DNA of 64,000 bases from Naegleria gruberi. Its lineage: Eukaryota. This document shows, piece after piece, positions 7,293 to 63,426 of this stretch (its first letter is position 1; each line of letters opens with the position of its first letter). Location of the stretch: assembly GCA_000004985.1 (NCBI GenBank), contig GG738896.1. One strand, written 5' to 3'. The position numbers and the translations under genes were made by a program. A model generated the notes under the pieces. The model was not told the origin of the DNA. It worked only from the letters and a program-made list of their open reading frames with translations, and searched no databases.

Positions 7293-9309
7293 TTACTTGG
7301 CTGATCTTTTAAGTTCTTCCTCTTCAATTTCTTTGAGCCATTGATTCATATGCTTTCTATTTCTCAAAAACCAGAAGGTGTACGATAGAGCAGCAATACC
7401 AACACAACATAAACTTCCACAAGCTAGGAAAACAAATCTGGATGGTGTAGAGAAGAAGAGAGCAGAGAAAAAGACAATAAGGTCAGCAATTTTGGTTAAG
7501 GAACCTTCTGTTGAGTTGACAATACCAGAATCTTTCTGATCTACCAATTGTTGCATAATTTGAATTTCCGCAAGGTCAAAGGCATATAAACCCAATCTAC
7601 TCATGATAATTCCAATAAGGAAGAAGTAAACAGCAAAGTAGAATTGCTCAGACCAGAAATTGAAAACAATAAAGCACAAAACTCCTGCCACTAGAGAGAA
7701 GAATTGGAAGTAAAGGGAAACAAGTCCTCCTCTAAAAACGTTAATTCTCATAATCAAGTAAGGTGCTATAAAGGTTGACAAGAGACCAGAGATGGCACTC
7801 AATGCTTGGAAAGTTCCCAAAACAGCAGAGTGAATTTTGTGACTCTTAAGGTAAGAAAGGAGCAATCCACTATGAGTAAGTACAGTAATAAATAAAAAGA
7901 CAAATGCCAAACTTGAGAGAAATACTTTTTGGGTGAGATATGATTTCCATCCCATAAACAGAATCTAATCAAAATGGAAGTAGATTATTATTGTAAAGTT
8001 ATTAATTCTAGTACGTACCTTGAAAACGTTTTGATGTTTCAAATTAACTGTTTCCTCCTTTTGTTCCAAATCAATTTGTTGCATTCCCTCATTGGCTGCC
8101 AATAATTCTCTTTCACGCTCTTCTTTGATTTTCAATTCTTGCTCCAATTTTGTAATGTGAAGTTCTTTCGTATTATTGTAAACATAGCGAATGCAAATAT
8201 ACTCTGGAACAAGAGAAAACACATTCCATAAACAAACTACAATGGCTCCAATCTTGTATCCTGCAAAAGTAAGAATGAGACCAAATAAAACAGGTGATAC
8301 AATGAGTGAAACCATGTCGAGACGTCTCATCATTGAGTTGATTCTTTCTAATGGAAGTTTTTCGCCTCTGGCAACCACCAAGCACCAATCTTTAGTTCTG
8401 GCCACACTTGTAACCATAGAGGATAAGTCACTTAAAGAACCAATAAGAGCACATGAAAAGAAAAGTACCATTGAAAGAACTGTTTCGAATGGCCAAATAA
8501 ATAGAGCATCTGTTTCAGTTTGAGGTTTTGAATCCTCAGATCTCCATCCAAAATATCCAAGTAAGAAAATTAAAAGAGTAGTTAATGCTACAGAGGCATT
8601 TTGTACAATAAGAGCAATTGACATGACCTTAAATCTTGGCATTGTATCAACCATGTAACCCATATGTGGCCCAAGTATTATTCCAATAAGTTTTTGTATA
8701 AATCCCATAAGTGCCATAGGTAATAATGTTTCTGGGAACATGTCACCAAATATTACAGGTAAAGCAAAAGCCCACATTCTATCACCCTTTCGTATTATTT
8801 CACAATTAATAAAATTAATTTCACACTCTTTCACTTACCCAAGATGCCAAAAAGTGACTTGCATAAAAGACATTTAACTTTCTAGATTTAAATTGAAATT
8901 CATCCTTGAAATACTTTTTAATTTTCTCAATGGTTGATTTCGGAGCAGCATCTTGTTCTGCACTCTTTTCAAATTCCAACATTTCATCGAGTTGAGTTTT
9001 TTCCTGTCCATGAACAATGATTTCATCCTCTGTATGTTCTTCCTCTATATCATCATGTAGAGAGAACATTTGAACGTTTTGTGGTTCGTAACTAATTGTC
9101 TCCTCCGTAGGAACAACAGTAACTTGTCGATTGACATCTGTTGTTTGCTGTTCAGCGATTTGATGATCATCAGCATTAACAAAATCAACAACAGCTACTC
9201 GTGGTTCATTATCAATCACCTGTGGATTATCATTCATACTCGAGTAGTCACCATCATCCTCCAAAGCAAAATGTTGCCTTAAGTTTGCTGGCTCTTCTTC
9301 GTTAAACAT
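7293..9309 (-). CDS. Ferroportin (SLC40A1) family iron exporter; 3 exons (about 9309..8839, 8786..8037, 7958..7293)
   Basis: Matches ferroportin N-terminal signatures (ASHFLASW|GDRMWAFALPVIFG.. RFKVMSIALIVQNASVAL) and has multiple TM helices. Donors read gtaagt and gtacgt. Acceptors are ..cgaaag|GGT and ..gattag|ATT. The ATG is set at about 9309 in an AAAAAAATG context. The ORF track splits the gene across 8821..9435, 7965..8834 and 7293..7955. There is an acidic N-terminal extension of about 150 aa. Confidence 0.7.
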
Positions 9310-25836: not shown

Positions 25837-25909
25837 TATACCCTGTGGGACTCGAACCCACAACCCCCGGCTCCGTAGGCCGATGCTCTTCCAATTGAGC
25901 CAAGGGTAC
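25837..25909 (-). tRNA. tRNA-Arg (anticodon ACG)
   Basis: The reverse complement reads GTACCCT TG GCTC AATTGGAA GAGC A TCGGC CTACGGA GCCGG GGGTT GTGGG TTCGAGT CCCAC AGGGTAT A. The CTACGGA anticodon loop matches eukaryotic tRNA-Arg-ACG. The T-loop is TTCGAGT. The cloverleaf has a G1-U72 wobble. Confidence 0.8.
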
Positions 25910-29529: not shown

Positions 29530-31849
29530 TTATTGTGTAATTTGGAATACTTCAATTTCTAAAACTCTAAAATTAGCACATCCAGCCAAATATTTCGAAA
29601 TAGACTTTGAACTATAATTGCCCGTATCTGGAAGGTAATACGTGTGTCCAAATTTCGAATAAGAATTGAGATTTTCATTGCAATTATCAGCAATGCAAAA
29701 GTCATTTCCACCTCCAAATATTGGTAAATAAGAAGCTTTTGCAGAAATAGCAAATCTGTGTTGACCTGGCTTGATATTGAACTTGTTAAAAATATATACC
29801 ATTCCATTGCTAGTCACTTTTTGAAATATTTTAAAGATGAAAGCTGAAGTATCAGAGACGTATTCTACACCAGTGTTAGCCCAACTTTGCATTGTGAATC
29901 CTCCAAAAATATGTCCAAAATCTGACTGAATAATTGTAAGAGTAGGTCCCTTATTATCACAAAGTTCATGGAATTTTGATGCCTTGAAACCATCTCTTGA
30001 ACCTCTGTAGAGTAGAGTGGGCTTAATACGAGATTTGGTATGAACATTAATCTCATTGAACATTCTAGAATTTGGAATAATATTTGAGTTGAAAAAAATG
30101 TTCTTGAATTTTTCAGAATTACAATCAAAGGTATCATTATCGGCATTGAAAATGGCTTGTTCGAAATTGGAATTGGCAAAATCACACATTCTCAATTTAC
30201 ATGTGGAAAAGTTGCACTTTTTCAAGTTCGAGTCAAGAAATTTGCACTTGTCGAATAGCAAGTTCTTGAATTGATAATTTTCAAAGTTAATGGAATGGAA
30301 GGAACATTCGGTGAAGGTAATGTCATACAATTGAGATTCGGGAAATACGAATTCTCTATCGAAAGAGCATCTCCAAAATTCCACACATATGATTTCACAA
30401 TTTTCAAATTTGGTTTGGAAGGAACAATCTGAAAATCCAATATTCAACAATTTGCAGTCCTTAAACTTGTTGTTTTTCAAGTTTTCTAAATGACAATTTT
30501 CAAATGTGAAATCTGAAAATATGCATTCAGTAAAGCAATACGCCAAATTTAAATTGGTTTCGAATAGAGATCCAATCTGACTGTGTTTGACTTCTATACC
30601 TTGAATTGTAAGAGAGTTAAGTAAATCAGGGGAAATTTTGGAAAGATTAATTTGACACTTTTTCAATGTACTTCCCTTAATTGTATTCGAAAAATCGAAA
30701 TGTCTCATGTCCATATCAGAAAATGTGCATACATTGAGAGTACATTCTTTGCATTGCAAACTCTTTACACCAGTAAAGAACGATCCATCAAGAGTACAAT
30801 TCACAAACCTGCAACTTTCAATATTATTTGATTGATTGAATTGAAGTTGAACTCGACATGAAATCATTTTAGCACCTGCAAAGTTTGCCTTATCAATCAA
30901 ACAATTCTCAAATCTCACATTTCTAAATGTAGTTTTGGAAAAGTCACAATTAATGAAATCATAATGATAGGAGAATGTAATTAATGCAATTTCCATTCCA
31001 CTGAATTTCATATTTCTAAAGTATTTGGAATTCATGTGATTGTTAAATAATTGACCAAGTGTACTATTGATTGGAATTTTCTTCAATTCCTTCCAATAAT
31101 TCTTCAACTTGAAAACCTTACAAGCAGAAATCAATTGTTGCTTCAAAGTTGGTGATAAATCACTACTTGCAATGATATTGCCAAACTTGAACCATTCCAA
31201 TAGGTGCTTGAATACTGTTGGATCACAATCAACAAAGAAGGAACCATTCTTTTCGGTAAAGATATTGGTTCTTTCACCTTTCAATAATTTGATGAATAGA
31301 TTGGTTTCGTCCTCTCTTTTTGTGGAGGTGAAATATTTCTTATTGGTCATTATTAGTTGACCACCAATATTGAAATATATTGGATCCAGTTCCATTTCGT
31401 CATCATCGTCATCTTCAAACTCATCTTCGGATTGTTCTTCTTCAACTTGTTTCTTTTCTGCCTCCTCAACTGCTTCTTTTTGCTTTCGTTCAATTTCTTC
31501 CAAAATTGTCTTCCTTGTTGAACATTCTTCCAAATGTTCTAGAATTCTCCCTCTAGCTTCTTCTTTATTGCAATAACTACAAACTACCATCAGCTTGTCA
31601 ATGTAGTTTTTAATGTTTTTCGGAGCAGGTTTAGTTTGAAAATTGGCATCATGACATTTAGGACAAGTTGAAAGGGACTTGGCACATGCTAAACAAAACA
31701 TATTTTCACAAATAGTATGGAAAACAGGATCAGACAATGGCAGAGAACAGGAAGAACACAGCCACTCTTCTTCTACCTTCTCCACAAACGAAAAATCGAG
31801 TATTGTCGCATGAGATTGTGGTGTCACCTGCTGCTTCACTGTCAACATT
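29530..31849 (-). CDS. RING finger + TRAF-type zinc finger + BTB/POZ (T1/KCTD-type) + pentapeptide repeats + C-terminal TLDc domain (KCTD9-like core with extra RING/TRAF and TLDc)
   Basis: RING: CSSCSLPLSDPVFHTICENMFCLACAKSLSTCPKCHD. TRAF ZnF: CSYCNKEEARGRILEHLEEC. BTB: IYFNIGGQLIMTNKKYFTSTKRED..FVDCDPTVFKHLLEWFKFGNI. More than 30 A(N/D)LxF-type pentapeptide repeats follow. TLDc: LLYRGSRDGFKASKFHELCDNKGPTLTIIQSDFGHIFGGFTMQSW. ATG at about 31849; the track's 31866 is a TTG. Confidence 0.75.
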
Positions 31850-32460
31850 TTTTTTTCAAGGAACAATTTCCATAAAAGGGTGGTTTGACTGTGATTGATT
31901 ATATTGGTTACGATTCAATAATGGAAGGTTTAACTTTAAATACCATTATTGTAAAATATTGTAAAATATGTTAACAACCGAAATACTCGTACTATTATCC
32001 AAAGAAAACCTTAATATTTCAAATAAAGTTGTCGGTAAGAGCTCCGATTATGGAATTTTATGGTATGAAATCATTAAGGTGATTTTTCATAAAAGGTTTT
32101 GCATAGAATAGCCCCTATATTGAGAGCAAACAACGTACACTCCTCAACTTCTCAGATTTTCCACTCTGGGTTGATTCTTTACTTTTGATTGATTTGTAAA
32201 ATATCCGAGTAAGATGGTTTTGAATAATGGTTCCAAAAACTCTACAAAGCATCTTATGTAGCTTCCATTAAGCCAGAAGCAAGTTGTTGTGTGCAGAACA
32301 ACACTGTATCAACACGCAAAACTCACCTTGCTCAAATTATTACTGAGAAAAAAAAGAACAAACCTATTTAACCTTATAAACTCAACAGTGCCTAATTTCC
32401 CATCTGCTTGGAGTGAATTGTGGGGTGCCATCTGTAAAAGATTCTTAGAGGATAACGAAA

Positions 32461-37827: not shown

Positions 37828-40800
37828 TTAGGCCTTAGTAGCACATTTTGTTCCTTTCCATCCCTCATTACACGAACACTTTCCATCAGTAATGCAAATT
37901 CCATGTTTCGAACAAACCAATGGATTCGAAGCTCCATAACCAAAACAAACGAATTCTGTCGTTTCACATTCATTTCCAATTCTTCCTAGAGGACAAGCAC
38001 ATGTATCTGGACTAGTACAATTACCAACTCCACTACAAACTAATCCACTTACAATTTTTCCATAACAAATTGGTAAGGAACATTGAGTAGCTCCATAACC
38101 AGAGTTACATAGACAAGTATCAGGAGATATGCATTGACCTCGATTGGTACAATTCAGGGAACAGATTGGAGTGTTACAAGTTTCACCAATCCATCCTTGG
38201 TTGCATTGACATGTGAAAGGAGCTGTACAGTTGCCATTACCATTGCAAGATTGAGCACAGAATGGTGGTTCGTAAATTCGTTGATGGAGAGCATCAATAT
38301 CTGGATCAGAAACTGAATCACCACAAACAGATTGAAAACCTGAAATGTCAGAAGGTAAAATTGGACTTGATGTCAAGTTGGCATCTGTCATTTGGGCATA
38401 TGATTCAGTAATGAAACGAACATCATCCATAATAAACTCTCTATAATCCAATGTGATGTCATCAACTGGTTTTTGCATAAAGGTTACTCTTTGAATTGAG
38501 TTCAAACCTGTTTGATTTGTGAAAGGAATGTCACTAACTGGAATTCTGACACGAGTTACTCTTGTGTGATCAATCTTGAAATGTTGAATATACTTTGGAT
38601 CAATGTAAATTGCTGGAATATCAGTGAATGCAGTATTCTTAATTTCAGAAAAGAAAATATTCAAATTTAATTGACCTTCAGAAATGGATTGGATAAAGAA
38701 TTCGAAATATCTAAATTTAGAAAGGTCAATTAATTGAACAGGGCCTCCTTTAGTATAACTTTTAGTAATCTGAACTTTACCCATTCCCATTCCAAATCTA
38801 ATACTTGTACTTCCACAAATTGCTGCGGTTGAGTAATCTTTCTGAGCTAGTGGAACATCTTGTTTGGCTACAGTTTGTAAAACCCATCCAGTTTGAGTTG
38901 AGATATCAGTCGATTCACTGTAGAACTTGAACATGTCATCAGAAGAAATAGCTCCACATGGTTGACTGGCAGAAATTGAAATAGGAAGTGAACATCTTGG
39001 TGTACCAAATTGAGTAATACCATTGTTACAAAATAATTGGGCTCTCAAATGACCATTTGGATTAGTACTTGTTCTCAACAAGACGAAAACTTCTCCCTTC
39101 AAAAGTGAGATAATTTCATCATATGAAAAATCCATTGAAAATCTTGAAACTGAATAAGGACTTGGATAAATTGATGGTTCTTGTAAAAATCTGACAATTT
39201 CACCAATTTTACCAATTCCAACTTGAATTTGAGTTGCTAAATGAGATAGATCATGATAAACTGTAAAATCAACTGTTCTCTTATTTGCTAATAAGCCAGC
39301 AAGAACTTTACCGTTTCCTCCAGCATTGATCATGCTTGAGCTTACTTGGCAAGGTTGTAAAATTCCAGAGAATCTTTCTTCAAGAGTTACCTTTTTGATT
39401 CTATCAATGCTTGCGGTTGGGAAATCCCAATTATAGACTTGACAATTATTATTTGGACATGTGGCAGTGATTGAAAACTTGGTGGAATAACCAGTATATA
39501 GAGAATATTCATCATAATATTCAGCAAAGGCAGTTCTTCCACCAGTGTTCTTAAAATGCAAGAATAAATGTTCAGTTTGATTTTCATAGAAATAAGAATT
39601 TGGGTTGACCATTAAATCGTCAATAGAATTGACACGAGGCAATGCTCTCTGACTCATTGATGCTGTTTCATATCTGATATCGAGAACGGCAGTTCTTGGA
39701 TATTGAACAGCTAATACAATCCAATCATTATTTGCAATCGATCTCAAATAATATTGCAAGTCATTTGGAGTTCCAATATTTAAGGCCCATCTCAATACAT
39801 AAACATTCTTCAAAACTAAATTAGAATCCATCCAGAAACCTCTTGTTCCCATATTCCATCCATGTACTTGATCATATTTACCAGGATTAGAAGTATCGTG
39901 AATGAAAAGTCTTGGCATTTTAACAGTCAACTTGTTAAGGTTGGGATCACTTCCAAGAGGTGAACTAGTTGAGAAACCTGCATAATTGACAAGAGTTAAA
40001 GCACCGTAACCTTCTTTAAAGACAGGACAATTATAACTATTCCAATCTGGTTGAGCATTACAACCTGGAACAGTCAAGAAAGAATTATTAGAAACTGACC
40101 ATCCCCCTCCGGTGAATCCTGTCTTACTTCCATCAGTATCCAAAACAGTCATACCTCTATTACCATCTGTAGGTGCTTCCAAGTAGAATGCACTGTTTGA
40201 ATTTACAAAAGTCAAATTTCTCAATCTTCCTCCAGTTTCGTATTTGAAATTAGCATTTGACAAGTTTGTAATAGCTCCTGCCTTTCTATACGAATTGGAC
40301 TTGTAATTTCTAAATACGGTATTTCTTACGTAGGAAGGTCCTCCATTATCATAAAACTCATATGCCTTAAACTCCTCAGTGTTAGAGAAGAAACCAGGAT
40401 AGGAACGTGAAACATCAATGCCAGCTCTGTAAGTCTCGCCTACATTATCACTTTCCGCCTCAAATACTGAATCTTCCACAACACTTGGTTCACCAGCGAC
40501 ATCAATACCAATTCTAGAGTCACCAACAAACATATTTCTCAAAGTAATTGTGTCTGCTCTCAACCACAAAGCCCACTTTCTAATTTTGAAAGCAACAAAG
40601 TTTTCAATAATGCTTTCAACGATGGGTTTACTTTTTGAGCCACGAACTGGATAAGGAGGTTCTACAGGAACCCAGGTGTCATTTTCAGGAAATCCATTGA
40701 CATCTACAAAGTCATCAATGTGAAGACCGACATGATTAGCAGAGTGAACAACGTTATTCTTGAATGAACCAAGTGGAAGCATTCTAGGTCTAATCAATGT

Positions 40801-42263
40801 GGTATTGGCATATTTATCTTGAACTAGACCGATAGCATACTCTGGAAGTGAAAACCAATAGCCAAATTTACCACCAATAGCTCTGTTTCCCTCAAAATAA
40901 TTCATTGCCTTTTGTTGTGTAAGAATTGTGTAAAATTAAGGAATTACTTACATTGGTAATCCAGAAAACTGATACATCGTTATCTGTAGGTATTATTTGA
41001 AGCGGGTCTGAATCGATAATTGGTAAAACTTTAGCTCCCAAATTATTTTTGAACAAGTTGTACATTTCTGATCCATTTTCCAAGAAAAAGGCATGTCCAT
41101 TGATATTATAACAAACATTATTCTCAATTTGAATATAATTTGAATCATGAACAGTGATACATCTTTGATAAGAATTATAAATACTGTTATCCTTTAGAAT
41201 AAAAGGTTTGACAGTAGAGTTCAATGCCTTATCTCCTAATAAGTGAAAGTGAATTGAATAACGTCCCATTAAACCCTTTAAAATATAATTGTTAATCATT
41301 ATAATTCAATAGAATAAACTCACCTTTTGTCCCATTCGTCTCAATTCCACACCAACCATTTCGAATTGTTCAACAAGACGAATGATAACATGACCACCAA
41401 ATGAAGAAGAAGCACTGGATACATCCCCTTCAAACACAATATTCCTATTGAGTTTGGCAACTTCTCCTCTTGTAACTCCACTTGCATAGTGAGTGAACAA
41501 GAGTGTTTGGTTGACTATAAAAGTAGTCGAGTTAATAATTGAAACAATGGTTCTTTCCTCACTCTGATCAGGAAATGGAACACCAACTCGCCAAGTTGGA
41601 AGGGTGACTTTAGTTTTATCTAGAAGTTCTCCGTAATCTGTCGAGGTCAATAAGATGGAATCGCCAACTTTCCAATTGGTTGGAGAACGAGTCTTGATAA
41701 TGGTTGTTCCTTTGACGGCACTTTCAGCCAATTCTACCCAAGATAAACCATCAACAGAACCAACGATTTGAATGAAAGAACCTGAACAAGATGTAAAATT
41801 CATTCAAATGTCAAAACTTACCTGACATGGCAGCAAGACCTTTGGCTCCACCACTACTTCCATCAAATGGATCAATTCCAATAATATTGGAAGCAGTTCT
41901 ATTTCCATAGAAAGTAACCACAATTTTACCAGTAATTGGACAACTAGAGCTGCCAGCAATCAATTTACCTCCCTTGTCAACTCTAATAAATTGGAGAGTC
42001 AAATTTAAATTGACATTGTTAAATATCAAGCTTGCATTTTGTTGGACAATAATTCCATACAACAAAACACCAGGTGACTTATCCAAAAGCGTATTTTGTG
42101 AAATGGTAATGGTAGAATTGACCTTGTTCCAATCAGCAATCGAAGAAAACATTTTCAAGCCAGATTGTTGATGTGGACATTGACCAACTACCATCTTTAC
42201 ATTTCCAGCTACTAAAAACAAGATAGTTATTAGTAGAATAGTTTGTAAGAAACGGTTTAACAT
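37828..42263 (-). CDS. Secreted G8-domain / right-handed beta-helix (PbH1) protein with C-terminal EGF-like modules (CEMIP/TMEM2/PKHD1-like architecture); 4 exons (about 42263..41832, 41791..41324, 41275..40952, 40908..37828)
   Basis: Signal peptide MLNRFLQTILLITILFLVAGNV. G8 domain in exon 1. Beta-helix segments (IHFHLLGDKALNS.., NNVCYNINGHAFFLENGSE). C-terminal Cys-rich EGF-like modules (CNGNGNCTAPFTCQCNQGWIGETCNTPIC..). Introns are gtaagt..ttcag (40 nt), gtgagt..ttaaag (48 nt) and gtaagt..aaaag (43 nt). All phases were checked against ORFs 41811.., 41306.., 40892.. and 37828... Confidence 0.7.
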
Positions 42264-43933: not shown

Positions 43934-46900
43934 ATGCAACAACCACATTCCAGAACGTTTCTCTATTTGCTTTTCATATTAATATTGCAAGTGTGTTTGC
44001 AAGTTCAACAACATTCCACCACACTAGCTGTCAACACATGTTGGGGATATTCAGCTACTGACATTTCGAATGTATGTGGAGGTCATGGTTTCTGTCAAAG
44101 TACTGATTCTTGCTATTGTGTAGATTCAACGAGTAGTAATACTTTATATTCATCAGGAGGATCCAACACTCTCTATCAGGAAACTTCTCTATGGTCCACC
44201 AACTCTCAATTCGAATTGAAACAACAAAATGATGGTAATTTGGTAGTTTATACGAGAAGTGGAGGAGTGGTTTTCTCTTTCTCAACTTGGCAACAAACAC
44301 CTGATACTCCCTATACTTTAGTTCTTTCTGGGGATGGTACATTACAAGTTAAAAGTGGTGGAGGTGCCATTATAAAGACAATTTCAGGAGCATGTGGTGG
44401 TACAGCCCCTTACAAATTACTAGTCCAAAATGATGGTAATATAGTGCTCTATGGAGCACAGAGAGAAGTTTGTTTTGCTTCTGGAACATCTCAAGGTGGT
44501 TATTCACTTACGTATAATTGGGGTGGAGACCAGTGCAATCAATATCTTTGTTACGGGTTGACTGGTGCTAATGCATGTAATGGTCACGGCTCTTGTAATT
44601 CGAGGGATAGTTGCTCATGTAATAATGGATACAGTGGAAGTCAATGTACTGAGTACTACTGCAATAGTGTACTGTATTCTCAGATTGGTACAGTTTGTAA
44701 TGGTCATGGAACGTGTACGGCTCCAAATACTTGTCAATGTACTGGTGGATATAATGGTACTTTTTGTGCTTCATATCAATGTTATGGATTTGAATCGAAT
44801 GACCCAGGAGCATGTAGTGGATTTGGAACTTGTTCTTCACCAAATACTTGTACTAATTGTCTTGCTGGAAGATATGGATCTGAGTGCCAATATTATGATT
44901 GCGGTGGAATTAGATTTGATCAACCAAACGTATGCTCTGGAAGAGGAGAATGTGGTTCTAAAAACAATTGTACTTGTTCAGAGCCATACTTTGGAGATAA
45001 TTGTGAAAATTTTATGTGTAATGGAATCATTAACAATTCTACGCTCGTTTGTTCAGGCCATGGAGCATGTTCTTCACCAGAGAATTGTACTTGCCAAGAG
45101 GGTTACTTTGGAGAGAATTGTGAATTGTTTGAATGCAGTGGAATTTTGAAAAATGAATCAAATGTGTGCACTGGATTTGGTAATTGCACAGCATTTGATA
45201 GTTGTCAATGTGATGAGCAACATTATGGTAAATTCTGTGAAATTAATATTTGCAATGGAGTACTCTCAAACAGTCCAAGTGTTTGCTCTTCACATGGTCA
45301 ATGTAACTCATTCAATAATTGTACTTGTGATGAAAATTATAGTGGACAAAATTGTGAAATTTATGATTGTTATGGAGCTTCTAAAAATTCCTCCTCCGTA
45401 TGCTCTGGAAGAGGAACATGTTCAGCATATAACAATTGTAGTTGCTCTGCACCTTTTTATGGATCTGATTGTGGATTATATAATTGTTTTGGAGTAGAGC
45501 ACTTGAACGACAGTTCATGTTCATCCCATGGTTCATGTGATTCACCAAACAATTGTACATGTAAACCTGGATATTATGGAAACCGTTGTGAGTTTCATAA
45601 TTGTTATGGCACTCTCTTCAACAGCTCAGGTGTTTGTTCCACTCATGGACAATGCTTATCACCAAATAATTGTTTCTGTGAAGCAGGATTCTATGGACCA
45701 GAATGTGCAGAATATGATTGTTTTGGAGTTCATAAGAATTCTTCAAATGTTTGTTTCCAACATGGAGCTTGTTTGAGTCCAAATAATTGTTCTTGCCAGG
45801 AAGGATACTTTTCGTTTGATTGTTCTAATCATAGATGTTATGGATATTTATTTAATGATACTACAAATGTTTGTAATGGCCATGGCTCATGTCCTTATCC
45901 AAATAATTGTACATGTCAATCAGGATATTATGGATATCAGTGTGAATCTCATGAATGCTTTGGAAAGTTATTCAATATCTCGACTGTTTGTTCCACCCAT
46001 GGACAATGTTTGTCACCAAATAATTGTTTCTGTGAAGCAGGATATTATGGACCAGAATGTGCAGAATATGATTGTTTTGGAGTTCATAAGAATTCTTCAA
46101 ATGTATGCTTCCAGCACGGTACATGTTTGAGTCCTAACAATTGCTCATGCCAAGAAGGATACTACGGATTCGATTGTTCTAATCACAACTGTTTTGGAAT
46201 TCTGTTTAATGATACCATGAATGTTTGTAATGGTCATGGTTCTTGTTTTGTTCCAGATAATTGTACATGTCATCCAGGATATTATGGAAAAACCTGTGAA
46301 ATGCACAATTGTTTCAATATTTTGTTCAATGACTCAAATGTTTGCTCAGGAAAAGGTCAATGCTTATCACCAAATAACTGTTCCTGTGTTGATGGTTTTA
46401 CCAATAAGGATTGCTCAGTGAATATCAGTCCTTTCCAAATCAACCTCACAAAATACGAAGAAGTTGTTTATTTGGAGTTTGATAACAAGACTATTAGTGT
46501 TGAAATTCAATTGACAGATCGAGTATTGAGCCAAAGTCCAAATATTTCCTACACTTGGTCTTGTGCTCAGTGCGATGGACAAAATGTGGTGTATTATGTT
46601 GATTCTAATCGTTTGTTCATCAACTCTACATTAACTGATGTTACTCAAGCAGGCAATTACACTTTCATTGCAAACGCATCCATTGCTAATATTCAACCAT
46701 TCCAAAGTAGAAAATCCAACATTGAGCAATTCAAATTGGTTGTAAAGTATGATTTGAATCAGCCAACTTTGGGCTCCTTTGGCTTACCTTCTGTACTTGT
46801 ATCTAATACTCAAGATCAAACTATTTCAACTGTTATTAATAGTATCACTCTTAATCAAACAACTGTAAGATACTTTTTGGGTTGTGGTAGAAATTGCTCA

Positions 46901-49900
46901 ACTTTGGTTTCGTATTTATACGAAGTGAAGGCTGGAGTGTTTTATTACAAAAAATCAGGTTCTGTAATGGCACAATTTGAGAGCTCTAATCTATTGACCT
47001 TTTCTCCATCTGTTCCTATTCAAGCAACCATTCCATCTGATTATTTGAATGAAACAGTCTCATTCACATTTACAGTTATCAATAACAAGCAACAGAATAT
47101 CAGTTCAACTGTACAAATTCAAATTGTCTCCTCTGCAAGCCCACCAACACGACTGACAAACATAGTGGATGTTGTACCAACATATGGTATTTCAATGAGT
47201 GAAAAGTTTACAATTAAGGTTTCGGAGTGGGTTGCATCACCTGAACTGTTACCACTAAAATACGCTTTTGGATATTTTGATAAATCCAAGGCAGAAGCTG
47301 TGAGATTGACCGAATATGGTCTTAATACTACGTTTTCATCTTATCTACCTTATATTAGATCATCATCTAGCTCTAAGGCAAGAAGCATCTTGGAAGCTAC
47401 AGAGACAATTGCTTTGGTTGTCTTTGTACAAGACTCTCTTGGAAATGTCGAAACTGAAACGGCAGCTAATGTAACAGTATCTCCATTTAATGGAACTCAA
47501 GAGCAATATATTGAGGTTGTTAAATCTTTGAGCGGAGAATCACTATTGGTTGCCTCAGTGGATCAAACATTCACAAGCTTAGCATCATCATCATTGGTTT
47601 CAGCCCTCATTTCTAATATTGAAATTGATCCAAAGAATCCTTCTTCTTCTCTTTCCAGCTTGGAAACGCTCACGTCCAACAATGAAACACTCACAGCCAA
47701 TACAGTTACTCAGGTCATCAACAAATTGGATTCATTTATCTCCAATCTAACAGAGCTCTATTTAAGTGAACTTGCTCTATATGGCTATGTGAAATCCGGG
47801 ATGTCCAGTACAGACATTAGCAAAACAGTTCAAATTATTTCGAACTGTTTCTCTACTTCATATGATGCCGAAAAAACCAAATCAACAGCAAGTCTCGTCA
47901 CAGGTCTGATTTATTATGGAACTATTCCTTCTGTTGTAGACACAACATCCACAGAATTACCAACAACCTCTTACAAATCAACTTCTATTAACATTACTGT
48001 TTCTAGTTTCAACATGCCAACACCGAGTACGAATCTACAATCAGTCTCAGATACTGAAAGCAAGGTAGCAATGAATTTGACATCTATTTTGTCCAAATAT
48101 GGTGCCTATTCGACAACATGTGGTGCAACAATGATAATTTATTCAAAGAACACTAATTATGATTCCTCTGTTAGTAACATGACTATCAGTTCCTCTGTTA
48201 CTGACTTTAAATTCATGAGAAAACTGGATATTTTAGTATTGAAAAATTTGGATTCACCGCTCATACTTTCCTTCAATGCAGCCACAATCCCAAGCTCAGT
48301 GATCGCCAACTCCACAGTTACCAACAGTACGTATCATTGTAAGTATTGGGATGAGAGTCTTAAATTGTGGAGCAGCAATGGATGTTTATTGAATAGAGTT
48401 TCATCAAATTCAATTGAATGCGCTTGCTCTCATACAACTATGTTTACAACTTTCCTTGAATCCAAGACCACAGCACTTACTGTTCAACTCAAGGATCAGG
48501 TTTCGTCTTTATACTATGCCCAAATATCATTCGGTATTATTTACTTGATTGCCGCCAGTGCTATTTTGGTTGGATTGATTGTTTTGAGAAAATCGCAACC
48601 TGTTAGCTCTAGATTACTGACTCCATATGTTGGTTTGATTGCCTTAATTGTGGAATGTACATTGATTTACATAGTACAAAGATCTGTTCTCGTTGATCAA
48701 TTGAACTCTGCCAATACTCAAATGTGGGAAAATGGAGATACTGCTGCCAACATTATTGCAAACATTGTAATGATTATTGTAAACACTCTCAATTTAACTG
48801 CCATTTTCTGTTACGTCATGCAAGTTTTCAGATTCCAATTCATGAAATTGCTTTACAAGAAACTTTCTGATAATAGAACTCAAGCTCAAAGTGCAACAGT
48901 TTTGAAAGTATTGAAGTATACCACTTCTCAAATATTATTTTATTCATTGATTGGAATTTTTACTGCCCTAAATATTGCCTATTGGGTTATTTGGGTCATT
49001 CTGAGAAGAACTGGAGTTCTCACATCAACACAGTACACCTATGTTGTATCCCTTTCTTATACGGTTTGCATTTTGGCATTTGGTTTGATAATTACTGCTG
49101 TTGCAATCCTTGACATGATTCTCTCCTCAAAGAAGGAAGTTGAGCAAAAGAAAAATAGAAGAAAAGCTATTAACTTTTCACAACCAACCAGCAACTTTAG
49201 TCTTGATAATGCTGAAAATGTACATGAAAAGAAGAAAATTAATAGGAATGTATTCTTGAATGCTTTCAATTGGTTTACATCAATGGATGGACCACTCTAT
49301 TTCAGAATGGAAATGTTCATTTATATCGTGTCTTTCATTTTGCTAATATTGAATCAAGTTATTGGATTGAGTAGCTTAGCATACAGATTTGAGAGTTTGA
49401 CAATGTTTAAACTTGCTTTGACTTTTGATTCCATTTCCTTCATCTTTGAGGTACTCTATGTGGTCTCATATATTTTAGTATTTGGTGGTTATGCACTCAT
49501 TGTCGCAATCATTTACAAGGTTAGACAACGTAGAACAAGAAAGGAAGAACAAAAGAAACAAAATGAGGAAATTATGAATCAAGAACTTTACAATACTTTG
49601 GAATCTGAAGAAGGTTATGAACTCTTTGCCAACTTTTGCGAAAAAGAATTCAGTTCAGAAAATCTATTCCTCTTCTCTGATATCAAAGCAAGTCCAGATG
49701 TGGCCTCTGGTGAAAATCTAGGAGGATTACTCTTCTTTGCTGAGAGAATTTATGAAAAGTACATCAAGACAGGTGCAGAAATGGAAGTTAACATTCCATC
49801 AAAGAGTAGAACTGCTTTTGTCCAACTCTATGAAAAATGTAAGAAAGTTGAAACAAACTCTTCATTGGAATTATTAGATTCTAATTCTCTAGCTAAATCT

Positions 49901-50077
49901 GGAATTGAAACCAATATTGTAAAGGATTGTTTCGATTTAATGATGAGACAAGTAGTAATGAATTTAGGAGATACCTTTTCTAGATTTGTTTTCACACCAG
50001 AATATGTTAATTTCAAGGCGGTTAGAGACGTTCAAATGCAAATTATCGAGAAGGCCAATGTTGTCTATGATATTTAA
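43934..50077 (+). CDS. Giant adhesion-GPCR-like receptor: signal peptide - bulb-type (B) lectin - about 20 EGF-like modules - S/T-rich stalk - GAIN/GPS motif - 7TM - C-terminal RGS domain
   Basis: Signal peptide FLYLLFILILQVCLQV. B-lectin QNDGNLVVYT and VQNDGNIVLYG. EGF units have a CxxxxxCxC..GYxGxxC periodicity of about 40 aa. GPS: CKYWDESLKLWSSNGCLLNRVSSNSIECACSHTTMFTTF. Seven hydrophobic helices. RGS: FANFCEKEFSSENLFLFSDIKA .. AEMEVNIPSKSRTAF .. DCFDLMMRQVVMNLGDTFSRFVFTPEY. Single 6.1-kb exon with an A-rich context at the ATG. Confidence 0.8.
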   Translation: MQQPHSRTFLYLLFILILQVCLQVQQHSTTLAVNTCWGYSATDISNVCGGHGFCQSTDSCYCVDSTSSNTLYSSGGSNTLYQETSLWSTNSQFELKQQNDGNLVVYTRSGGVVFSFSTWQQTPDTPYTLVLSGDGTLQVKSGGGAIIKTISGACGGTAPYKLLVQNDGNIVLYGAQREVCFASGTSQGGYSLTYNWGGDQCNQYLCYGLTGANACNGHGSCNSRDSCSCNNGYSGSQCTEYYCNSVLYSQIGTVCNGHGTCTAPNTCQCTGGYNGTFCASYQCYGFESNDPGACSGFGTCSSPNTCTNCLAGRYGSECQYYDCGGIRFDQPNVCSGRGECGSKNNCTCSEPYFGDNCENFMCNGIINNSTLVCSGHGACSSPENCTCQEGYFGENCELFECSGILKNESNVCTGFGNCTAFDSCQCDEQHYGKFCEINICNGVLSNSPSVCSSHGQCNSFNNCTCDENYSGQNCEIYDCYGASKNSSSVCSGRGTCSAYNNCSCSAPFYGSDCGLYNCFGVEHLNDSSCSSHGSCDSPNNCTCKPGYYGNRCEFHNCYGTLFNSSGVCSTHGQCLSPNNCFCEAGFYGPECAEYDCFGVHKNSSNVCFQHGACLSPNNCSCQEGYFSFDCSNHRCYGYLFNDTTNVCNGHGSCPYPNNCTCQSGYYGYQCESHECFGKLFNISTVCSTHGQCLSPNNCFCEAGYYGPECAEYDCFGVHKNSSNVCFQHGTCLSPNNCSCQEGYYGFDCSNHNCFGILFNDTMNVCNGHGSCFVPDNCTCHPGYYGKTCEMHNCFNILFNDSNVCSGKGQCLSPNNCSCVDGFTNKDCSVNISPFQINLTKYEEVVYLEFDNKTISVEIQLTDRVLSQSPNISYTWSCAQCDGQNVVYYVDSNRLFINSTLTDVTQAGNYTFIANASIANIQPFQSRKSNIEQFKLVVKYDLNQPTLGSFGLPSVLVSNTQDQTISTVINSITLNQTTVRYFLGCGRNCSTLVSYLYEVKAGVFYYKKSGSVMAQFESSNLLTFSPSVPIQATIPSDYLNETVSFTFTVINNKQQNISSTVQIQIVSSASPPTRLTNIVDVVPTYGISMSEKFTIKVSEWVASPELLPLKYAFGYFDKSKAEAVRLTEYGLNTTFSSYLPYIRSSSSSKARSILEATETIALVVFVQDSLGNVETETAANVTVSPFNGTQEQYIEVVKSLSGESLLVASVDQTFTSLASSSLVSALISNIEIDPKNPSSSLSSLETLTSNNETLTANTVTQVINKLDSFISNLTELYLSELALYGYVKSGMSSTDISKTVQIISNCFSTSYDAEKTKSTASLVTGLIYYGTIPSVVDTTSTELPTTSYKSTSINITVSSFNMPTPSTNLQSVSDTESKVAMNLTSILSKYGAYSTTCGATMIIYSKNTNYDSSVSNMTISSSVTDFKFMRKLDILVLKNLDSPLILSFNAATIPSSVIANSTVTNSTYHCKYWDESLKLWSSNGCLLNRVSSNSIECACSHTTMFTTFLESKTTALTVQLKDQVSSLYYAQISFGIIYLIAASAILVGLIVLRKSQPVSSRLLTPYVGLIALIVECTLIYIVQRSVLVDQLNSANTQMWENGDTAANIIANIVMIIVNTLNLTAIFCYVMQVFRFQFMKLLYKKLSDNRTQAQSATVLKVLKYTTSQILFYSLIGIFTALNIAYWVIWVILRRTGVLTSTQYTYVVSLSYTVCILAFGLIITAVAILDMILSSKKEVEQKKNRRKAINFSQPTSNFSLDNAENVHEKKKINRNVFLNAFNWFTSMDGPLYFRMEMFIYIVSFILLILNQVIGLSSLAYRFESLTMFKLALTFDSISFIFEVLYVVSYILVFGGYALIVAIIYKVRQRRTRKEEQKKQNEEIMNQELYNTLESEEGYELFANFCEKEFSSENLFLFSDIKASPDVASGENLGGLLFFAERIYEKYIKTGAEMEVNIPSKSRTAFVQLYEKCKKVETNSSLELLDSNSLAKSGIETNIVKDCFDLMMRQVVMNLGDTFSRFVFTPEYVNFKAVRDVQMQIIEKANVVYDI
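45600..46400 (+). repeat. Intragenic higher-order tandem duplication (about 360 nt, or 3 EGF modules) with high nucleotide identity
   Basis: ..caccaaataattgtttctgtgaagcagga(t/a)t(c/t)tatggaccagaatgtgcagaatatgattgttttggagttcataagaattcttcaaatgt.. occurs at about 45660 and again at about 46020. At the protein level, HGQCLSPNNCFCEAGFYGPECAEYDCFGVHKNSSNVCFQHG..CLSPNNCSCQEGY.. is repeated. Confidence 0.7.
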
Positions 50078-50099: not shown

Positions 50100-50858
50100 T
50101 TATTGATCTTTAATGCCGATGGTAACTGGTTGTAAAGTGACTGGTTGAGTAACCATACCTGGTGGATTGATAGTGCCGTAACCTTGTGGCATTGGTTGAC
50201 TAGAGGCTGATGATGGTGTAGGAATGAATTGTTGCTGTTGTGGTGGAACTAGCATTGGTTGTTGTTGATACGGTTGACCATATGGTTGTTGAATCATCAT
50301 TGGTTGTTGGGGTGGCATTGTCAAATTAGCTGTTCCAGTATAAACCAATCTCAATACGATACCAGTAGAAACATGAATCAATTTCCATTCGAAACCATTG
50401 CTAGTCAATTGAGAATTATTCAATCCTTGGAACATCTTATTCACTTCTTGTTTAACTTCAAGTTGTTTTTGCTGTTGTTGATAAATCATGTAAAACATTA
50501 CAAAAATATAAACAAATATCCACAATCCACATGTCAATACTATCAAAATAATATTGATCATCATTATCATGAAATATTTGCTTTTAATCTCACCAACAGT
50601 CCTATCAAGATAAGTATTCAAACTATTCATCGTGTCAGTAAACAATTGTCCATCAAGTGAATACGATTGTACCAAATTAGGAGCCAACTGATTATTGAAA
50701 GTTTTCATAGTGTGAGCGTAGGAATCTTCATAGACAACTTGTTGTCCTGGTTGAATGGCCAAAAGTTGTTGATCCATTGCCATGGCCATAGCAGCACGAG
50801 CTGCATAATTTCCACCATGATGATGATGGTGATGGCGATGGTGATGCATTCTTGTCAT
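50100..50858 (-). CDS. Single-pass membrane protein with an N-terminal poly-His tract and a Q/P-rich C-terminus, hypothetical
   Basis: MTRMHHHRHHHHHHGG.. TM helix FMIMMINIILIVLTCGLWIFVYIFVMFYMIY. C-terminal PQQPMMIQQPYGQPYQQQP. Confidence 0.45.
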   Translation of the reverse strand: MTRMHHHRHHHHHHGGNYAARAAMAMAMDQQLLAIQPGQQVVYEDSYAHTMKTFNNQLAPNLVQSYSLDGQLFTDTMNSLNTYLDRTVGEIKSKYFMIMMINIILIVLTCGLWIFVYIFVMFYMIYQQQQKQLEVKQEVNKMFQGLNNSQLTSNGFEWKLIHVSTGIVLRLVYTGTANLTMPPQQPMMIQQPYGQPYQQQPMLVPPQQQQFIPTPSSASSQPMPQGYGTINPPGMVTQPVTLQPVTIGIKDQ

Positions 50859-51025
50859 TTTTTTTAACTGTCACTCTGAACAGGTTCATAGATGGTTCTA
50901 TTTAGAAGATAGATCACTTTTTTACAATAACTATTTTGTAAATGGTTTAAGAACAGTATTATAATTTTATTTCCATTTCCAAATTTAAGGTTCTCTAAAT
51001 TTAAATTGAATATTTATTAAAAAAA

Positions 51026-52039
51026 ATGTCGCAACAAGCAACAATTGATTCATCATCATCGCCAGCAAACATGTATTTTCCGGTGCAAACAAAAATTTCA
51101 TGCCTCTTTGAAATTGAATTTTTAGAGAAGGAGAAGAAAGTTCTTGCTGTCAATAGATTATATAAGAAGGTTGTTAATTTACCAACCAATTCTGATGATA
51201 TCCGAGTGAATCCGACCATAAAAATTGATGGCACTTGTTGTCTTGTTCGTCAAGAGAAATTATTTAAACGTTATGATAGAAAATTGAATGCTTCGGGATC
51301 GAAGAAGAATAAGCAATTTCAAAAAGAAATTTCTCAAGGTACTGCCGATACTAATATTTTACAATTTGATATTTCAAAGGATTTTAAGGAGGGACCAAAA
51401 GGATGGATACCTTGTGATAGTATTGCTCATTTATTTACTGAGGAGAATAATTCAAATGTGGTTTCGTCTCAACATTTAGTGGGATGGATTCCTGTGGATT
51501 CTAATGATGCTGCAGATAAATGGCATTCTTCTGCGATAGTTTCGATTAATAATGAGCCACATGCCATAATGTTAATTCCCTATTTTGACCAAAATGATGA
51601 ACAAGCCAAGTTTTCAGTTGAATTTAGAAAGTTATCAAGTTTAGAAAATCAAACATTGGAATTAATTGGATCAAAAATTAATGGTAACGTTTATAACTTT
51701 CCTGCAAATGAAAAACAACACTTTTTAGTTCCACATGGATGGGCTTCCTATTCTTGGAAAGCAAGTAATGCATTTTTGGAGAATGTTAAAGAGCTCACCG
51801 TGGAAAAGCTTAAATCTTGGTTCGAAGATGAATCCAATATCATGAGTAAAAGTGAAGGTATTGTATTTCACATAATGTACAAAACAGAGGAAGGTAAGGA
51901 TAAGGAAATGCTGATCAAAATACACAGACACCACCTTAATTTGGATTGGCCTTTGAAGGGCTCTGCCATTCCACAATTTCAATATCAGTTGCAATGGATA
52001 GAAGAAGTTTTGAGACTCAAGAGTGAAAATAAACTCTAA
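51026..52039 (+). CDS. C12orf29-like (Rnl-family) 5'-3' RNA ligase homolog
   Basis: NPTIKIDGTCCLVRQEKLFKRYDRK matches the KxDG nucleotidyltransferase motif and flanks of human C12orf29 (..IPTEKVDGTCCYV..RLDRK) as recalled. Similar length, 337 aa against about 325. The N-terminal ..ISCLFEIEFLEK..KVLAV.. is also similar. Confidence 0.6.
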   Translation: MSQQATIDSSSSPANMYFPVQTKISCLFEIEFLEKEKKVLAVNRLYKKVVNLPTNSDDIRVNPTIKIDGTCCLVRQEKLFKRYDRKLNASGSKKNKQFQKEISQGTADTNILQFDISKDFKEGPKGWIPCDSIAHLFTEENNSNVVSSQHLVGWIPVDSNDAADKWHSSAIVSINNEPHAIMLIPYFDQNDEQAKFSVEFRKLSSLENQTLELIGSKINGNVYNFPANEKQHFLVPHGWASYSWKASNAFLENVKELTVEKLKSWFEDESNIMSKSEGIVFHIMYKTEEGKDKEMLIKIHRHHLNLDWPLKGSAIPQFQYQLQWIEEVLRLKSENKL

Positions 52040-52185: not shown

Positions 52186-53826
52186 TTACTCGGGATAATC
52201 TTTAACAAGATTTTTCCATGTAGGACCGAATCTTTTTTGGGCCAATTTCTTGTTCCATTCCTTCTCCAGTCTCTTTCCTTCTGATCTTGGTGTGTTTAAA
52301 AGCACAAGTTCGCAAACATCTTCATTACACATCTCGTCTATTGACATACCATTCAAAGACTTGAAAATGGCTGTTAACAGTCTCTGATCATCACAATAAG
52401 GTCCAAATTTCATAATAAGATTAACAAGAGCATTGGTTGACACTCCCCTCATTTTTTCTCCTTTAACAATTCCTGCATTGGATGAAGAAGGATCTGAAGG
52501 AGGGTGATTAGTTTCGACTGGAACAGTACTGGCACTAGGGCCATTGGATGCCTCAGGAACACTCTGTTGATGACTTGTACTATTAAGATCAATTGGTGGT
52601 ACAGAACTAATTGGAAACTCGATAATAGGTTGTTCTTGAATTTGATGTTGTAGAGATTGAATTGGTGGAGGAAGAATTTGATCATTGGTTGGATGTGGAA
52701 TCATATTGTGTAAATGTTGAGGGTGTTGAGGGTGTTGAGGCATTGATGGAGGCATTTGGATAGTGTGTTGGATCATTTGGGAATGTTGGATTGCAAAATC
52801 ATTGAAAGATGGTCCAACAGTGGAAGCTGAAGCTCCAAATTGTTGGAATGGATAACTGAGTGCTCTGAAGTGATCTGGTGGAGGTAGTGAATGAGGATGA
52901 GCACCTATTGGAATTGGTTGATTTTGCATGTGCAAAGCATGTTGTAGTGATGCACTTGGTGGAGTTAATTTTGTTTTGGATGGATGGCTGTGACGTTTCT
53001 TCTTTTTCATTCTTTCAACAAACTTTACAATCTTCTTTGAATCACTTATGAAAGGTTGTGTCTTGTTTGATTTTTTAACCTTTTTTGGTGGTGGTGTTTG
53101 AGAAGATACCTCGGTTCTCAATGTAAGAACTGAATCCATTTCCAAATCAGAAACTTCTTCATCATCATCAGAAGATGAATAATAAAGTGAAGGAGTTGGT
53201 GCACTTCCTGTTAATTTTCTCTTTCGTTGTGTTTTGACTGGTGTGAGTGTGATTTGGCTAACTTCATCAGAGTCGCTGTCACTGTTCTGCTCACTTGCTC
53301 TTCCATTATTTGGTGATGGATTAGTAAAGCAAGGAGGTGGTTGACTACCAAGAAAAACCACATCATCATCCGAGTCATCAAAAACATCAGAATTATTTCC
53401 TTCTTCTTGTTGAACGGGTGTCAAGGCTTCCTCCTCTTGTACTACTGTTGTTCTTTTTGGTGTTTGGAATGATGGTGATTTACCAAAGGTAATAATGGGA
53501 CTAATTTCTTCTTCCTGTTGACTGTCGGGTACTATTGAATTATTAATTGTTTGTTGCTGTGTTATTAATTGATTATTATTATTTGTTGGTTGGCTTTTAC
53601 CATTTGCTAATTGATTATTATTATTATTGTTGGAAGGTTTGTTATTATTTCCTACTGATGGCGATTTTGAATTATTTTGTTGTTGATGGTTAGTTGTTGA
53701 TAAAGATGAGGATGAGCCATTATTATTATTAGTAGAAGCACCACGAGGTTTTGGTGGAGAGTTGGAGACGAGATTCGGAACAGTAAACAAATCACCAAGA
53801 CTCGATAGGGAATGTGAGACTGACAT
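52186..53826 (-). CDS. N/Q/S/H/P-rich low-complexity protein with a conserved-looking C-terminal globular region, hypothetical
   Basis: The first ATG (MSVSHS..) is at about 53826; the track starts at a TTG. Poly-N and poly-Q tracts, HPQHPQH repeats. C-terminal LVNLIMKFGPYCDDQRLLTAIFKSLNGMSIDEMCNEDVCELVLLNTP. Confidence 0.45.
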   Translation of the reverse strand: MSVSHSLSSLGDLFTVPNLVSNSPPKPRGASTNNNNGSSSSLSTTNHQQQNNSKSPSVGNNNKPSNNNNNNQLANGKSQPTNNNNQLITQQQTINNSIVPDSQQEEEISPIITFGKSPSFQTPKRTTVVQEEEALTPVQQEEGNNSDVFDDSDDDVVFLGSQPPPCFTNPSPNNGRASEQNSDSDSDEVSQITLTPVKTQRKRKLTGSAPTPSLYYSSSDDDEEVSDLEMDSVLTLRTEVSSQTPPPKKVKKSNKTQPFISDSKKIVKFVERMKKKKRHSHPSKTKLTPPSASLQHALHMQNQPIPIGAHPHSLPPPDHFRALSYPFQQFGASASTVGPSFNDFAIQHSQMIQHTIQMPPSMPQHPQHPQHLHNMIPHPTNDQILPPPIQSLQHQIQEQPIIEFPISSVPPIDLNSTSHQQSVPEASNGPSASTVPVETNHPPSDPSSSNAGIVKGEKMRGVSTNALVNLIMKFGPYCDDQRLLTAIFKSLNGMSIDEMCNEDVCELVLLNTPRSEGKRLEKEWNKKLAQKRFGPTWKNLVKDYPE

Positions 53827-54103
53827 TCTTGTGCTGTAAAGCAAATGAATTTTTTTTGCTTGAGATTTGCTGAATTTTCAGAAAGCATATTGTTTAGCAG
53901 TTTGGTAATTATTTAATAACTCAAAGTTTTTTCCTACGACAAAGTTTTGTGACTGGAATCCAAGAATACTGTATTAGAAAGTTGACTGTGGATTCAATCC
54001 CATCTGATGTGTTCCAATATTGATTGACCTGATGGTGACTTAATTTTTGAGCTTTTAATTCATGTCTCTTGCAAAAATTTTAATATTTTTAAATTAAAAA
54101 AAA

Positions 54104-63352: not shown

Positions 63353-63426
63353 GCAGCGATAGATCAGTTGGTTAGATCGTAAGCCTAACACGCTTAAGGT
63401 CGCGGGTTCAAGCCCCGCTCACTGTA
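63353..63426 (+). tRNA. tRNA-Val (anticodon AAC)
   Basis: GCAGCGA TA GATC AGTTGGTTA GATC G TAAGC CTAACAC GCTTA AGGTC GCGGG TTCAAGC CCCGC TCACTGT A. The anticodon arm GCCTAACACGC..AAGGTC is the eukaryotic tRNA-Val-AAC signature. The acceptor stem has one C-A mismatch and a G1-U72 wobble. Confidence 0.75.

What the first reader, a model, noticed from the sequence alone, without database searches (positions are those of the whole stretch)
51026..52039. Homolog of the human C12orf29-type ATP-dependent RNA ligase (KIDGTCC motif)
The motif lysine in TIKIDGTCCLV and the flanking residues resemble the recently characterised human C12orf29 5'-3' RNA ligase family. That family has a patchy eukaryotic distribution. 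A protist ortholog would extend it and mark a candidate RNA-repair enzyme.
Basis: partly seen in the sequence, partly recalled or inferred. Interest (0 to 1): 0.65.

Follow-up and report, generated by a model that had tools for sequence, protein, structure and literature searches.

The report
Naegleria RLIG1 (C12orf29-type) RNA ligase gene
This gene in the amoeboflagellate Naegleria gruberi encodes a genuine, apparently catalytically intact relative of the human RNA ligase RLIG1/C12orf29, but public databases already label it that way, so it is a correct call rather than a discovery.

The parts
51026..52039 (+). Complete single-exon CDS (337 aa plus stop) of the N. gruberi RLIG1/C12orf29-family RNA ligase
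   Evidence: ORF listing. 100% identical to the N. gruberi predicted protein that UniRef names 'RNA ligase 1'. Pfam PF17720 at 146 bits.
51221..51232 (+). Motif I, KIDG (K66-G69). K66 is the predicted AMP-accepting lysine and D68 a predicted metal ligand.
   Evidence: Invariant in 14/14 and 15/15 aligned homologues. Equivalent to human K57/D59 and Yasminevirus K73/D75.
51269..51271 (+). R82, predicted to contact the ATP ribose 3'-OH
   Evidence: Invariant in A1. Equivalent to vertebrate R77 and Yasminevirus R89.
51281..51403 (+). Residues 86-126: the helix-containing segment after motif I. It is present in vertebrate RLIG1 (human aa 81-111) and largely absent from the viral and short bacterial-type forms.
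   Evidence: Alignment A1. The Yasminevirus chain has about 16 residues where Naegleria has about 60. The paper notes the viral enzyme lacks human aa 81-111. The model shows a helix at 89-103.
51659..51661 (+). E212 in TLELIG, the predicted ATP-ribose/metal-binding glutamate
   Evidence: Invariant. Equivalent to human E195 and Yasminevirus E174.
51734..51736 (+). H237 in PHG, predicted to belong to the ribose 2'-OH hydrogen-bond network
   Evidence: Invariant. Equivalent to Yasminevirus H195.
51854..51856 (+). E277 in SEGIV, the predicted Mg2+-binding glutamate
   Evidence: Invariant. Equivalent to human E250 and Yasminevirus E240.
51917..51919 (+). K298 in IKIHRHH, the predicted phosphate-neutralising lysine (motif V equivalent)
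   Evidence: Invariant. Equivalent to human K263 and Yasminevirus K253.
51989..52027 (+). C-terminal amphipathic helix (residues 322-334). It is conserved within the heterolobosean clade and differs from the metazoan C-terminal tail.
   Evidence: Model secondary structure H322-334 at high pLDDT. Alignment A1 columns 538-604.
50859..51025 (.). 167-bp AT-rich intergenic region shared with the divergently transcribed gene at 50100..50858 (-). It presumably holds the promoter. This is inferred only.
   Evidence: ORF coordinates and sequence. No promoter test was run.

Best explanation
The ORF encodes the Naegleria gruberi member of the RLIG1 (C12orf29, Pfam PF17720, formerly DUF5565) family. This family consists of minimal single-domain ATP-dependent 5'-to-3' RNA ligases of the covalent nucleotidyltransferase / atypical ATP-grasp superfamily. 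The inferred mechanism is the classical three-step pathway. (1) K66 attacks the alpha-phosphate of ATP to give a lysyl-AMP enzyme, with R82, E212 and H237 positioning the ribose and D68, E212, E277 and K298 handling Mg2+ and phosphate. (2) AMP is transferred to an RNA 5'-phosphate to give AppRNA. (3) An RNA 3'-OH attacks AppRNA to seal the break and release AMP. By analogy with the human and viral enzymes, the likely substrates are broken structured RNAs with 5'-P and 2',3'-OH ends, such as tRNA anticodon loops or oxidatively damaged rRNA, which makes it an RNA-repair enzyme. Family membership, fold and active-site conservation are shown here. Catalysis, substrate and physiological role are inferred.
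Against: No biochemical or expression data exist for this protein. No end-healing partner (polynucleotide kinase/phosphatase, cyclic phosphodiesterase) or other RNA-repair gene lies in the 64-kb window, so context gives no functional support. Even for human RLIG1 the physiological substrate is unsettled: tRNA, 28S rRNA and Ap2N capping have all been proposed. The Naegleria protein carries clade-specific insertions (about residues 239-262 and 283-294) and a distinct C-terminal helix of unknown effect.
Confidence: 0.9

Rival explanations
1. It has RLIG1 chemistry, but its physiological product is the 5'-adenylylated RNA (AppRNA, i.e. an Ap2N 'cap') rather than a sealed phosphodiester. On this reading it acts mainly as an RNA 5'-adenylyltransferase.
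For: Human RLIG1 converts 5'-pRNA to Ap2A/Ap2G-RNA in vitro. Its knockout lowers basal Ap2N-RNA by about 20%. The same catalytic residues are present here.
Against: AppRNA is the obligatory step-2 intermediate of every ligase of this superfamily. Human, bacterial, phage and Yasminevirus homologues all complete ligation in vitro. Nothing in the Naegleria sequence suggests loss of step 3.
Confidence: 0.07
2. The gene is a recent horizontal acquisition from a giant virus of amoebae (Klosneuvirinae such as Yasminevirus) or from a bacterium, not a native eukaryotic gene.
For: The family is dominated by short forms that are probably bacterial or phage: 2,007 representatives, most 190-230 aa. Giant viruses of amoebae encode it. 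The eukaryotic distribution is patchy.
Against: GC content (about 0.33) is indistinguishable from the flanking Naegleria genes. Orthologues exist in three Naegleria species and Willaertia, forming a clade with 97-100 bootstrap that is nested in neither the virus-like group nor the short forms. The protein is closer to vertebrate RLIG1 (34% identity) than to the viral enzyme, and it shares the human-type segment after motif I that the virus lacks. An ancient transfer cannot be excluded because deep nodes are unresolved, with bootstraps 6-22.
Confidence: 0.1
3. It belongs to a different ligase family, for example the Naegleria nick-sealing ligase NgrRnl (Rnl5), an Rnl1/Rnl2/Trl1-type ligase or a DNA ligase.
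Confidence: 0.01
4. It is a chance ORF, a decayed pseudogene or a catalytically dead pseudo-enzyme.
For: No expression or activity data are available here.
Against: The reading frame is intact over its full length and identical to the deposited gene model. All eight active-site residues are conserved. It is conserved across Naegleria species at about 60% identity. The model is confident and compact.
Confidence: 0.02

Closest known systems
Human/vertebrate RLIG1 (C12orf29), Pfam PF17720
   Same: Same Pfam family. Similar length (337 aa against 325). 31-35% identity over about 86% of the protein. Identical catalytic set (K57/D59/R77/E195/E250/K263 correspond to K66/D68/R82/E212/E277/K298). It shares the segment after motif I (human aa 81-111). 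It is a single-domain ligase with no OB or C-terminal RNA-binding domain.
   Different: The Naegleria clade has its own insertions (about residues 239-262 and 283-294). It also has a short C-terminal helix in place of the metazoan C-terminal tail. Activity, substrates and stress phenotype are known only for the human, mouse and zebrafish enzymes.
Yasminevirus sp. GU-2018 RLIG1 (PDB 9c6l/9c6m)
   Different: The viral protein is shorter (277 aa) and lacks the segment after motif I, about 16 residues against about 60. In the NJ tree the virus-like representative P0144 falls outside the heterolobosean clade.
NgrRnl, the Naegleria gruberi nick-sealing RNA ligase (Rnl5 family, PDB 5cot)
   Different: It is a different gene and a different family. 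There is no sequence match at E<=1, and only 18% identity over 131 aligned residues. NgrRnl has an N-terminal OB domain, which RLIG1 lacks and which is not seen in this model. N. gruberi therefore encodes at least two unrelated ATP-dependent RNA ligases.
Phage T4 Rnl1 (tRNA anticodon-loop repair ligase)
   Different: Rnl1 has an additional C-terminal tRNA-binding domain and works with T4 Pnk. No such domain or partner gene is seen here.

Membership tests
RLIG1 / C12orf29 (Pfam PF17720, ex-DUF5565) | Whole-protein score above the Pfam gathering threshold, with near full-length coverage | tested here: met
   146 bits against a cutoff of 25, E 1.6e-42, protein 19-314 aligned to profile 6-279 of 324.
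RLIG1 / C12orf29 (Pfam PF17720, ex-DUF5565) | Motif I KxDG with the adenylylated lysine (human K57) | tested here: met
   K66-I-D68-G69 is invariant across homologues and aligns to vertebrate K57/D59/G60.
RLIG1 / C12orf29 (Pfam PF17720, ex-DUF5565) | ATP- and Mg-binding residues proven by mutagenesis (human E195, E250, K263; viral R89, H195) | tested here: met
   E212, E277, K298, R82 and H237 are all present and invariant.
RLIG1 / C12orf29 (Pfam PF17720, ex-DUF5565) | Minimal atypical ATP-grasp/nucleotidyltransferase fold as in PDB 9c6l, with no OB or extra RNA-binding domain | tested here: met
RLIG1 / C12orf29 (Pfam PF17720, ex-DUF5565) | ATP-dependent auto-adenylylation on the motif lysine | not testable with these tools
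   Requires recombinant protein with [alpha-32P]ATP or intact-mass measurement, and a K66A/M control.
RLIG1 / C12orf29 (Pfam PF17720, ex-DUF5565) | Ligation of RNA 5'-phosphate to 3'-hydroxyl ends through AppRNA | not testable with these tools
   Requires an in vitro ligation assay. It has been shown for human, tunicate, hemichordate, bacterial, phage and Yasminevirus homologues only.
Rnl5 (NgrRnl-type nick-sealing RNA ligase) | Sequence similarity to NgrRnl and an N-terminal OB domain fused to the nucleotidyltransferase domain | tested here: not met
Rnl1 / Rnl2 / Trl1 ligase families | Family-specific sequence signature and appended C-terminal domain | tested here: not met

The most novel reading that the evidence does not exclude
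RLIG1 is not a metazoan (plus viral and bacterial) speciality. It may be an old eukaryotic RNA-repair ligase already present in the common ancestor of Discoba and Opisthokonta and lost many times. Supporting this, a well-supported heterolobosean clade exists (three Naegleria species, Willaertia, environmental relatives), and homologues occur in Percolomonas, a euglenid (Jenningsia) and a choanoflagellate (Salpingoeca kvevrii). Alternatively it has moved between amoebae, their giant viruses and animals. Either way, Naegleria would offer a tractable unicellular system, already carrying a second characterised ligase (NgrRnl), in which to find the true substrate of RLIG1.
Probability: 0.3. Interest if true: 0.4.

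Novelty: already known. Interest (0 to 1): 0.2.

Why it matters
The call is correct, and the practical value is modest. It shows that the RLIG1 family, whose physiological substrate in humans is still debated, has catalytically intact members in free-living and pathogenic Naegleria and in other protists. The two founding papers do not say this in their text. One states that no orthologues were found in eukaryotes outside chordates and some molluscs. The other lists bacteria, viruses and metazoans. This gives a unicellular model for RLIG1 biology and a data point on the family's origin. It also documents that N. gruberi encodes two unrelated ATP-dependent RNA ligases. It does not reveal a new kind of enzyme, because UniProt and Pfam already carry the assignment.

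Tried and rejected
(1) NCBIfam scan: no family matched, as expected for a prokaryote-oriented library. (2) Genomic context as a clue to function: all large ORFs in the window were scanned against Pfam. No polynucleotide kinase/phosphatase, cyclic phosphodiesterase, RtcB, Hen1 or similar partner was found, so context is uninformative, as is usual in eukaryotes. (3) Foreign-origin test by composition: there is no GC anomaly. (4) Synteny with the N. fowleri/lovaniensis-type contig L001: the upstream neighbours differ (NFACT-R, DONSON). The downstream convergent gene shows only a weak C-terminal match (E 0.003), so the result is inconclusive. (5) NJ phylogeny to decide between vertical descent and transfer: shallow clades are robust, but deep nodes have bootstraps of 6-22, so no conclusion can be drawn about the sister group. 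(6) A third named homologue search with a non-metazoan profile returned almost no additional named taxa. (7) I looked for the exact Yasminevirus sequence among the representatives and did not find it. P0144 is a related but unnamed 277-aa sequence. (8) I looked for any mention of a Naegleria or protist RLIG1 in the RLIG1 literature. Naegleria appears only as NgrRnl/5cot. The distribution figure (SI Fig. S3) is not held as text and could not be read.

Full report
Observation. The window carries an uninterrupted ORF at 51026..52039 on the + strand, encoding 337 aa. The gene lies between a divergent gene at 50100..50858 (-) and a convergent gene at 52186..53844 (-), with a 167-bp AT-rich spacer upstream. 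The translated ORF is 100% identical over its full length to a Naegleria gruberi 'predicted protein' on a 331,721-bp contig. UniRef already names this protein 'RNA ligase 1', with Pfam PF17720 precomputed. The window is therefore N. gruberi nuclear DNA and the ORF equals the deposited gene model.

Is it more than a KxDG motif? Yes. Pfam RLIG1 (PF17720) matches at 146 bits (E 1.6e-42, gathering cutoff 25) across residues 19-314, and no other family appears at E<=1. Against all PDB sequences, the only real hits are the two Yasminevirus 'RNA ligase1' entries 9c6l/9c6m (E 6e-12). No other ligase reaches E<=1. Vertebrate RLIG1 proteins, including Swiss-Prot RLIG1_DANRE, align at 31-35% identity over about 86% of the query.

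Active site. In a 14-sequence alignment spanning Heterolobosea, vertebrates, invertebrates and short bacterial-type forms, the invariant columns include K66, D68, G69, R82, E212, H237, E277 and K298. The same holds in a second alignment of 15 non-metazoan sequences, except that R82 is conserved in at least 90% of sequences rather than all. Mapping through a 325-aa vertebrate sequence, whose numbering matches the positions reported for the human enzyme, gives K57, D59, G60, R77, E195, H221, E250 and K263. Yuan et al. list K57, D59, E195, E250 and K263 as the conserved catalytic residues, and K57A abolishes auto-AMPylation. Hu et al. identify E195 and E250 as the ATP- and Mg-binding glutamates and K57 as the adenylylated lysine. 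In the Yasminevirus structure they describe K73, D75, R89, E174, H195, E240 and K253 as the nucleotide and metal ligands, and mutating them reduces adenylylation and ligation. Counting through the HMMER alignment (chain index = native + 1), each of these seven aligns with an identical Naegleria residue. Nothing in the sequence suggests a dead enzyme.

Not to be confused with NgrRnl. N. gruberi is famous among RNA-ligase researchers for NgrRnl, the Rnl5 nick-sealing ligase (PDB 5cot). Both RLIG1 papers used it as the structural analogue of C12orf29. The present protein is a different gene. It shows no sequence match to 5cot and only 18% identity over 131 structurally aligned residues. Its best match is the single-domain viral RLIG1, not an OB-plus-NTase architecture. 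N. gruberi therefore encodes at least two unrelated ATP-dependent RNA ligases.

Long form against short form. An exhaustive profile search finds 2,007 representatives at 50% identity with E<=1e-3, and 183 at E<=1e-30. Most are 190-230 aa and a minority are 300-350 aa. The Naegleria protein belongs to the long form. It shares with vertebrates the roughly 40-residue segment after motif I (Naegleria 86-126, human 81-111), which Hu et al. note is missing from the Yasminevirus enzyme. It also shares the beta-hairpin region before the TLELIG strand, which the short forms lack. Clade-specific features are insertions at about 239-262 and 283-294, and a C-terminal helix (322-334) that replaces the metazoan tail.

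Distribution and origin. The closest relatives are N. fowleri and N. lovaniensis (in the same 90% cluster as P0002, which is about 60% identical to the query, also named 'RNA ligase 1' by UniRef), Willaertia magna (40%) and four environmental sequences. More distant long-form homologues come from Percolomonas sp. (Heterolobosea), Jenningsia fusiforme (a euglenid) and Salpingoeca kvevrii (a choanoflagellate), all from transcriptome-based collections. A bootstrapped NJ tree on 205 trimmed columns supports the vahlkampfiid clade (100) and the wider heterolobosean-like clade (97). That clade is not nested within metazoans, the giant-virus-like group or the short forms. Deep nodes have bootstraps of only 6-22, so the sister group is unresolved. 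GC content of the gene (about 0.33) equals that of its neighbours. A recent transfer from a giant virus or bacterium is therefore unlikely. Ancient transfer versus vertical descent with losses remains open.

Context. All large ORFs in the window were scanned. The neighbours are an EGF-repeat/RGS receptor-like protein, several proteins with no Pfam family, an F-box protein, ferroportin, RasGEF, SGT1, an aminotransferase and others. No end-healing enzyme or other RNA-repair gene is present. Two tRNA genes in the window are far away and carry no implication. In an N. fowleri/lovaniensis-type contig the upstream neighbours differ, and the downstream gene is only weakly similar.

Mechanism. Membership, fold and active site are shown. 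From these, and from the established enzymology of the family, the most likely mechanism has three steps. K66 is adenylylated by ATP/Mg2+. AMP is transferred to an RNA 5'-phosphate. A 3'-OH then attacks the AppRNA to seal the break. The likely role is repair of broken structured RNA, by analogy with the human, mouse and viral data on tRNA anticodon loops and on rRNA under oxidative stress. This last step is inference only. A minority alternative is that AppRNA ('Ap2N cap') is itself a product, as recently shown in vitro for human RLIG1.

Comparison with what is known, and novelty. However, the assignment already exists in public databases (UniRef name and Pfam domain), so this is not a discovery. 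The papers do not say it: Yuan et al. could not find orthologues in eukaryotes outside chordates and some molluscs. [quoted passage not shown] In the RLIG1 literature I could search, Naegleria appears only as NgrRnl, although their SI Fig. S3 could not be read. The protist distribution is thus a small, real addition, and no protist RLIG1 has been tested biochemically. I rate the feature as already known, with low interest (0.2). The most novel reading still open is an ancient eukaryotic origin, or amoeba-virus-animal gene flow, with Naegleria as a model for RLIG1 function. I give this a probability of about 0.3 and moderate interest if true.

Noticed in passing
window 43934..50077 (+): A 2,047-aa ORF immediately upstream. 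It has many teneurin/Jagged-type EGF repeats in its N-terminal half, hydrophobic segments that look like transmembrane helices by eye in the translation, and a C-terminal RGS domain (residues 1887-2026). This looks like a receptor-RGS fusion and is unusual-looking for a protist.
   Followed up: partly
window 37828..42263 (-): Three consecutive same-strand ORFs carry a G8 domain, a CEMIP beta-helix, CEMIP domain X and EGF repeats. This is probably one intron-split gene for a CEMIP/KIAA1199-like protein.
   Followed up: no
window 7293..8834 (-): Ferroportin (FPN1) is split across two adjacent ORFs, 7965..8834 (profile 14-226) and 7293..7955 (profile 249-430). This is consistent with a very short intron or a frameshift.
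   Followed up: no
window 50100..50858 (-): The gene divergently transcribed from the ligase encodes a 252-aa protein. It has an N-terminal His run (HHHRHHHHHH), a central hydrophobic segment and a Q/P-rich C-terminus. It matches no Pfam family.
   Followed up: partly
window 25837..25909 (-) and 63353..63426 (+): Two tRNA genes, tRNA-Arg(ACG) and tRNA-Val(AAC). Neither is near the ligase gene.
   Followed up: no
L001 1..6591 (Logan SRR29240419 contig): In this contig of the N. fowleri/lovaniensis-type orthologue, RLIG1 sits next to NFACT-R and DONSON genes. This differs from the N. gruberi upstream neighbours. Only the C-terminus of the downstream convergent gene is weakly similar (E 0.003).
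   Followed up: partly
P0039, P0045, P0042 (related proteins, not in the window): RLIG1-family long forms are present in transcriptome collections of the euglenid Jenningsia fusiforme, the heterolobosean Percolomonas sp. WS and the choanoflagellate Salpingoeca kvevrii. In the crude NJ tree, Percolomonas did not group with the Naegleria clade. Contamination was not excluded.
   Followed up: partly
window 29530..31866 (-): A 778-aa ORF combines pentapeptide repeats with a C-terminal TLDc domain.
   Followed up: no
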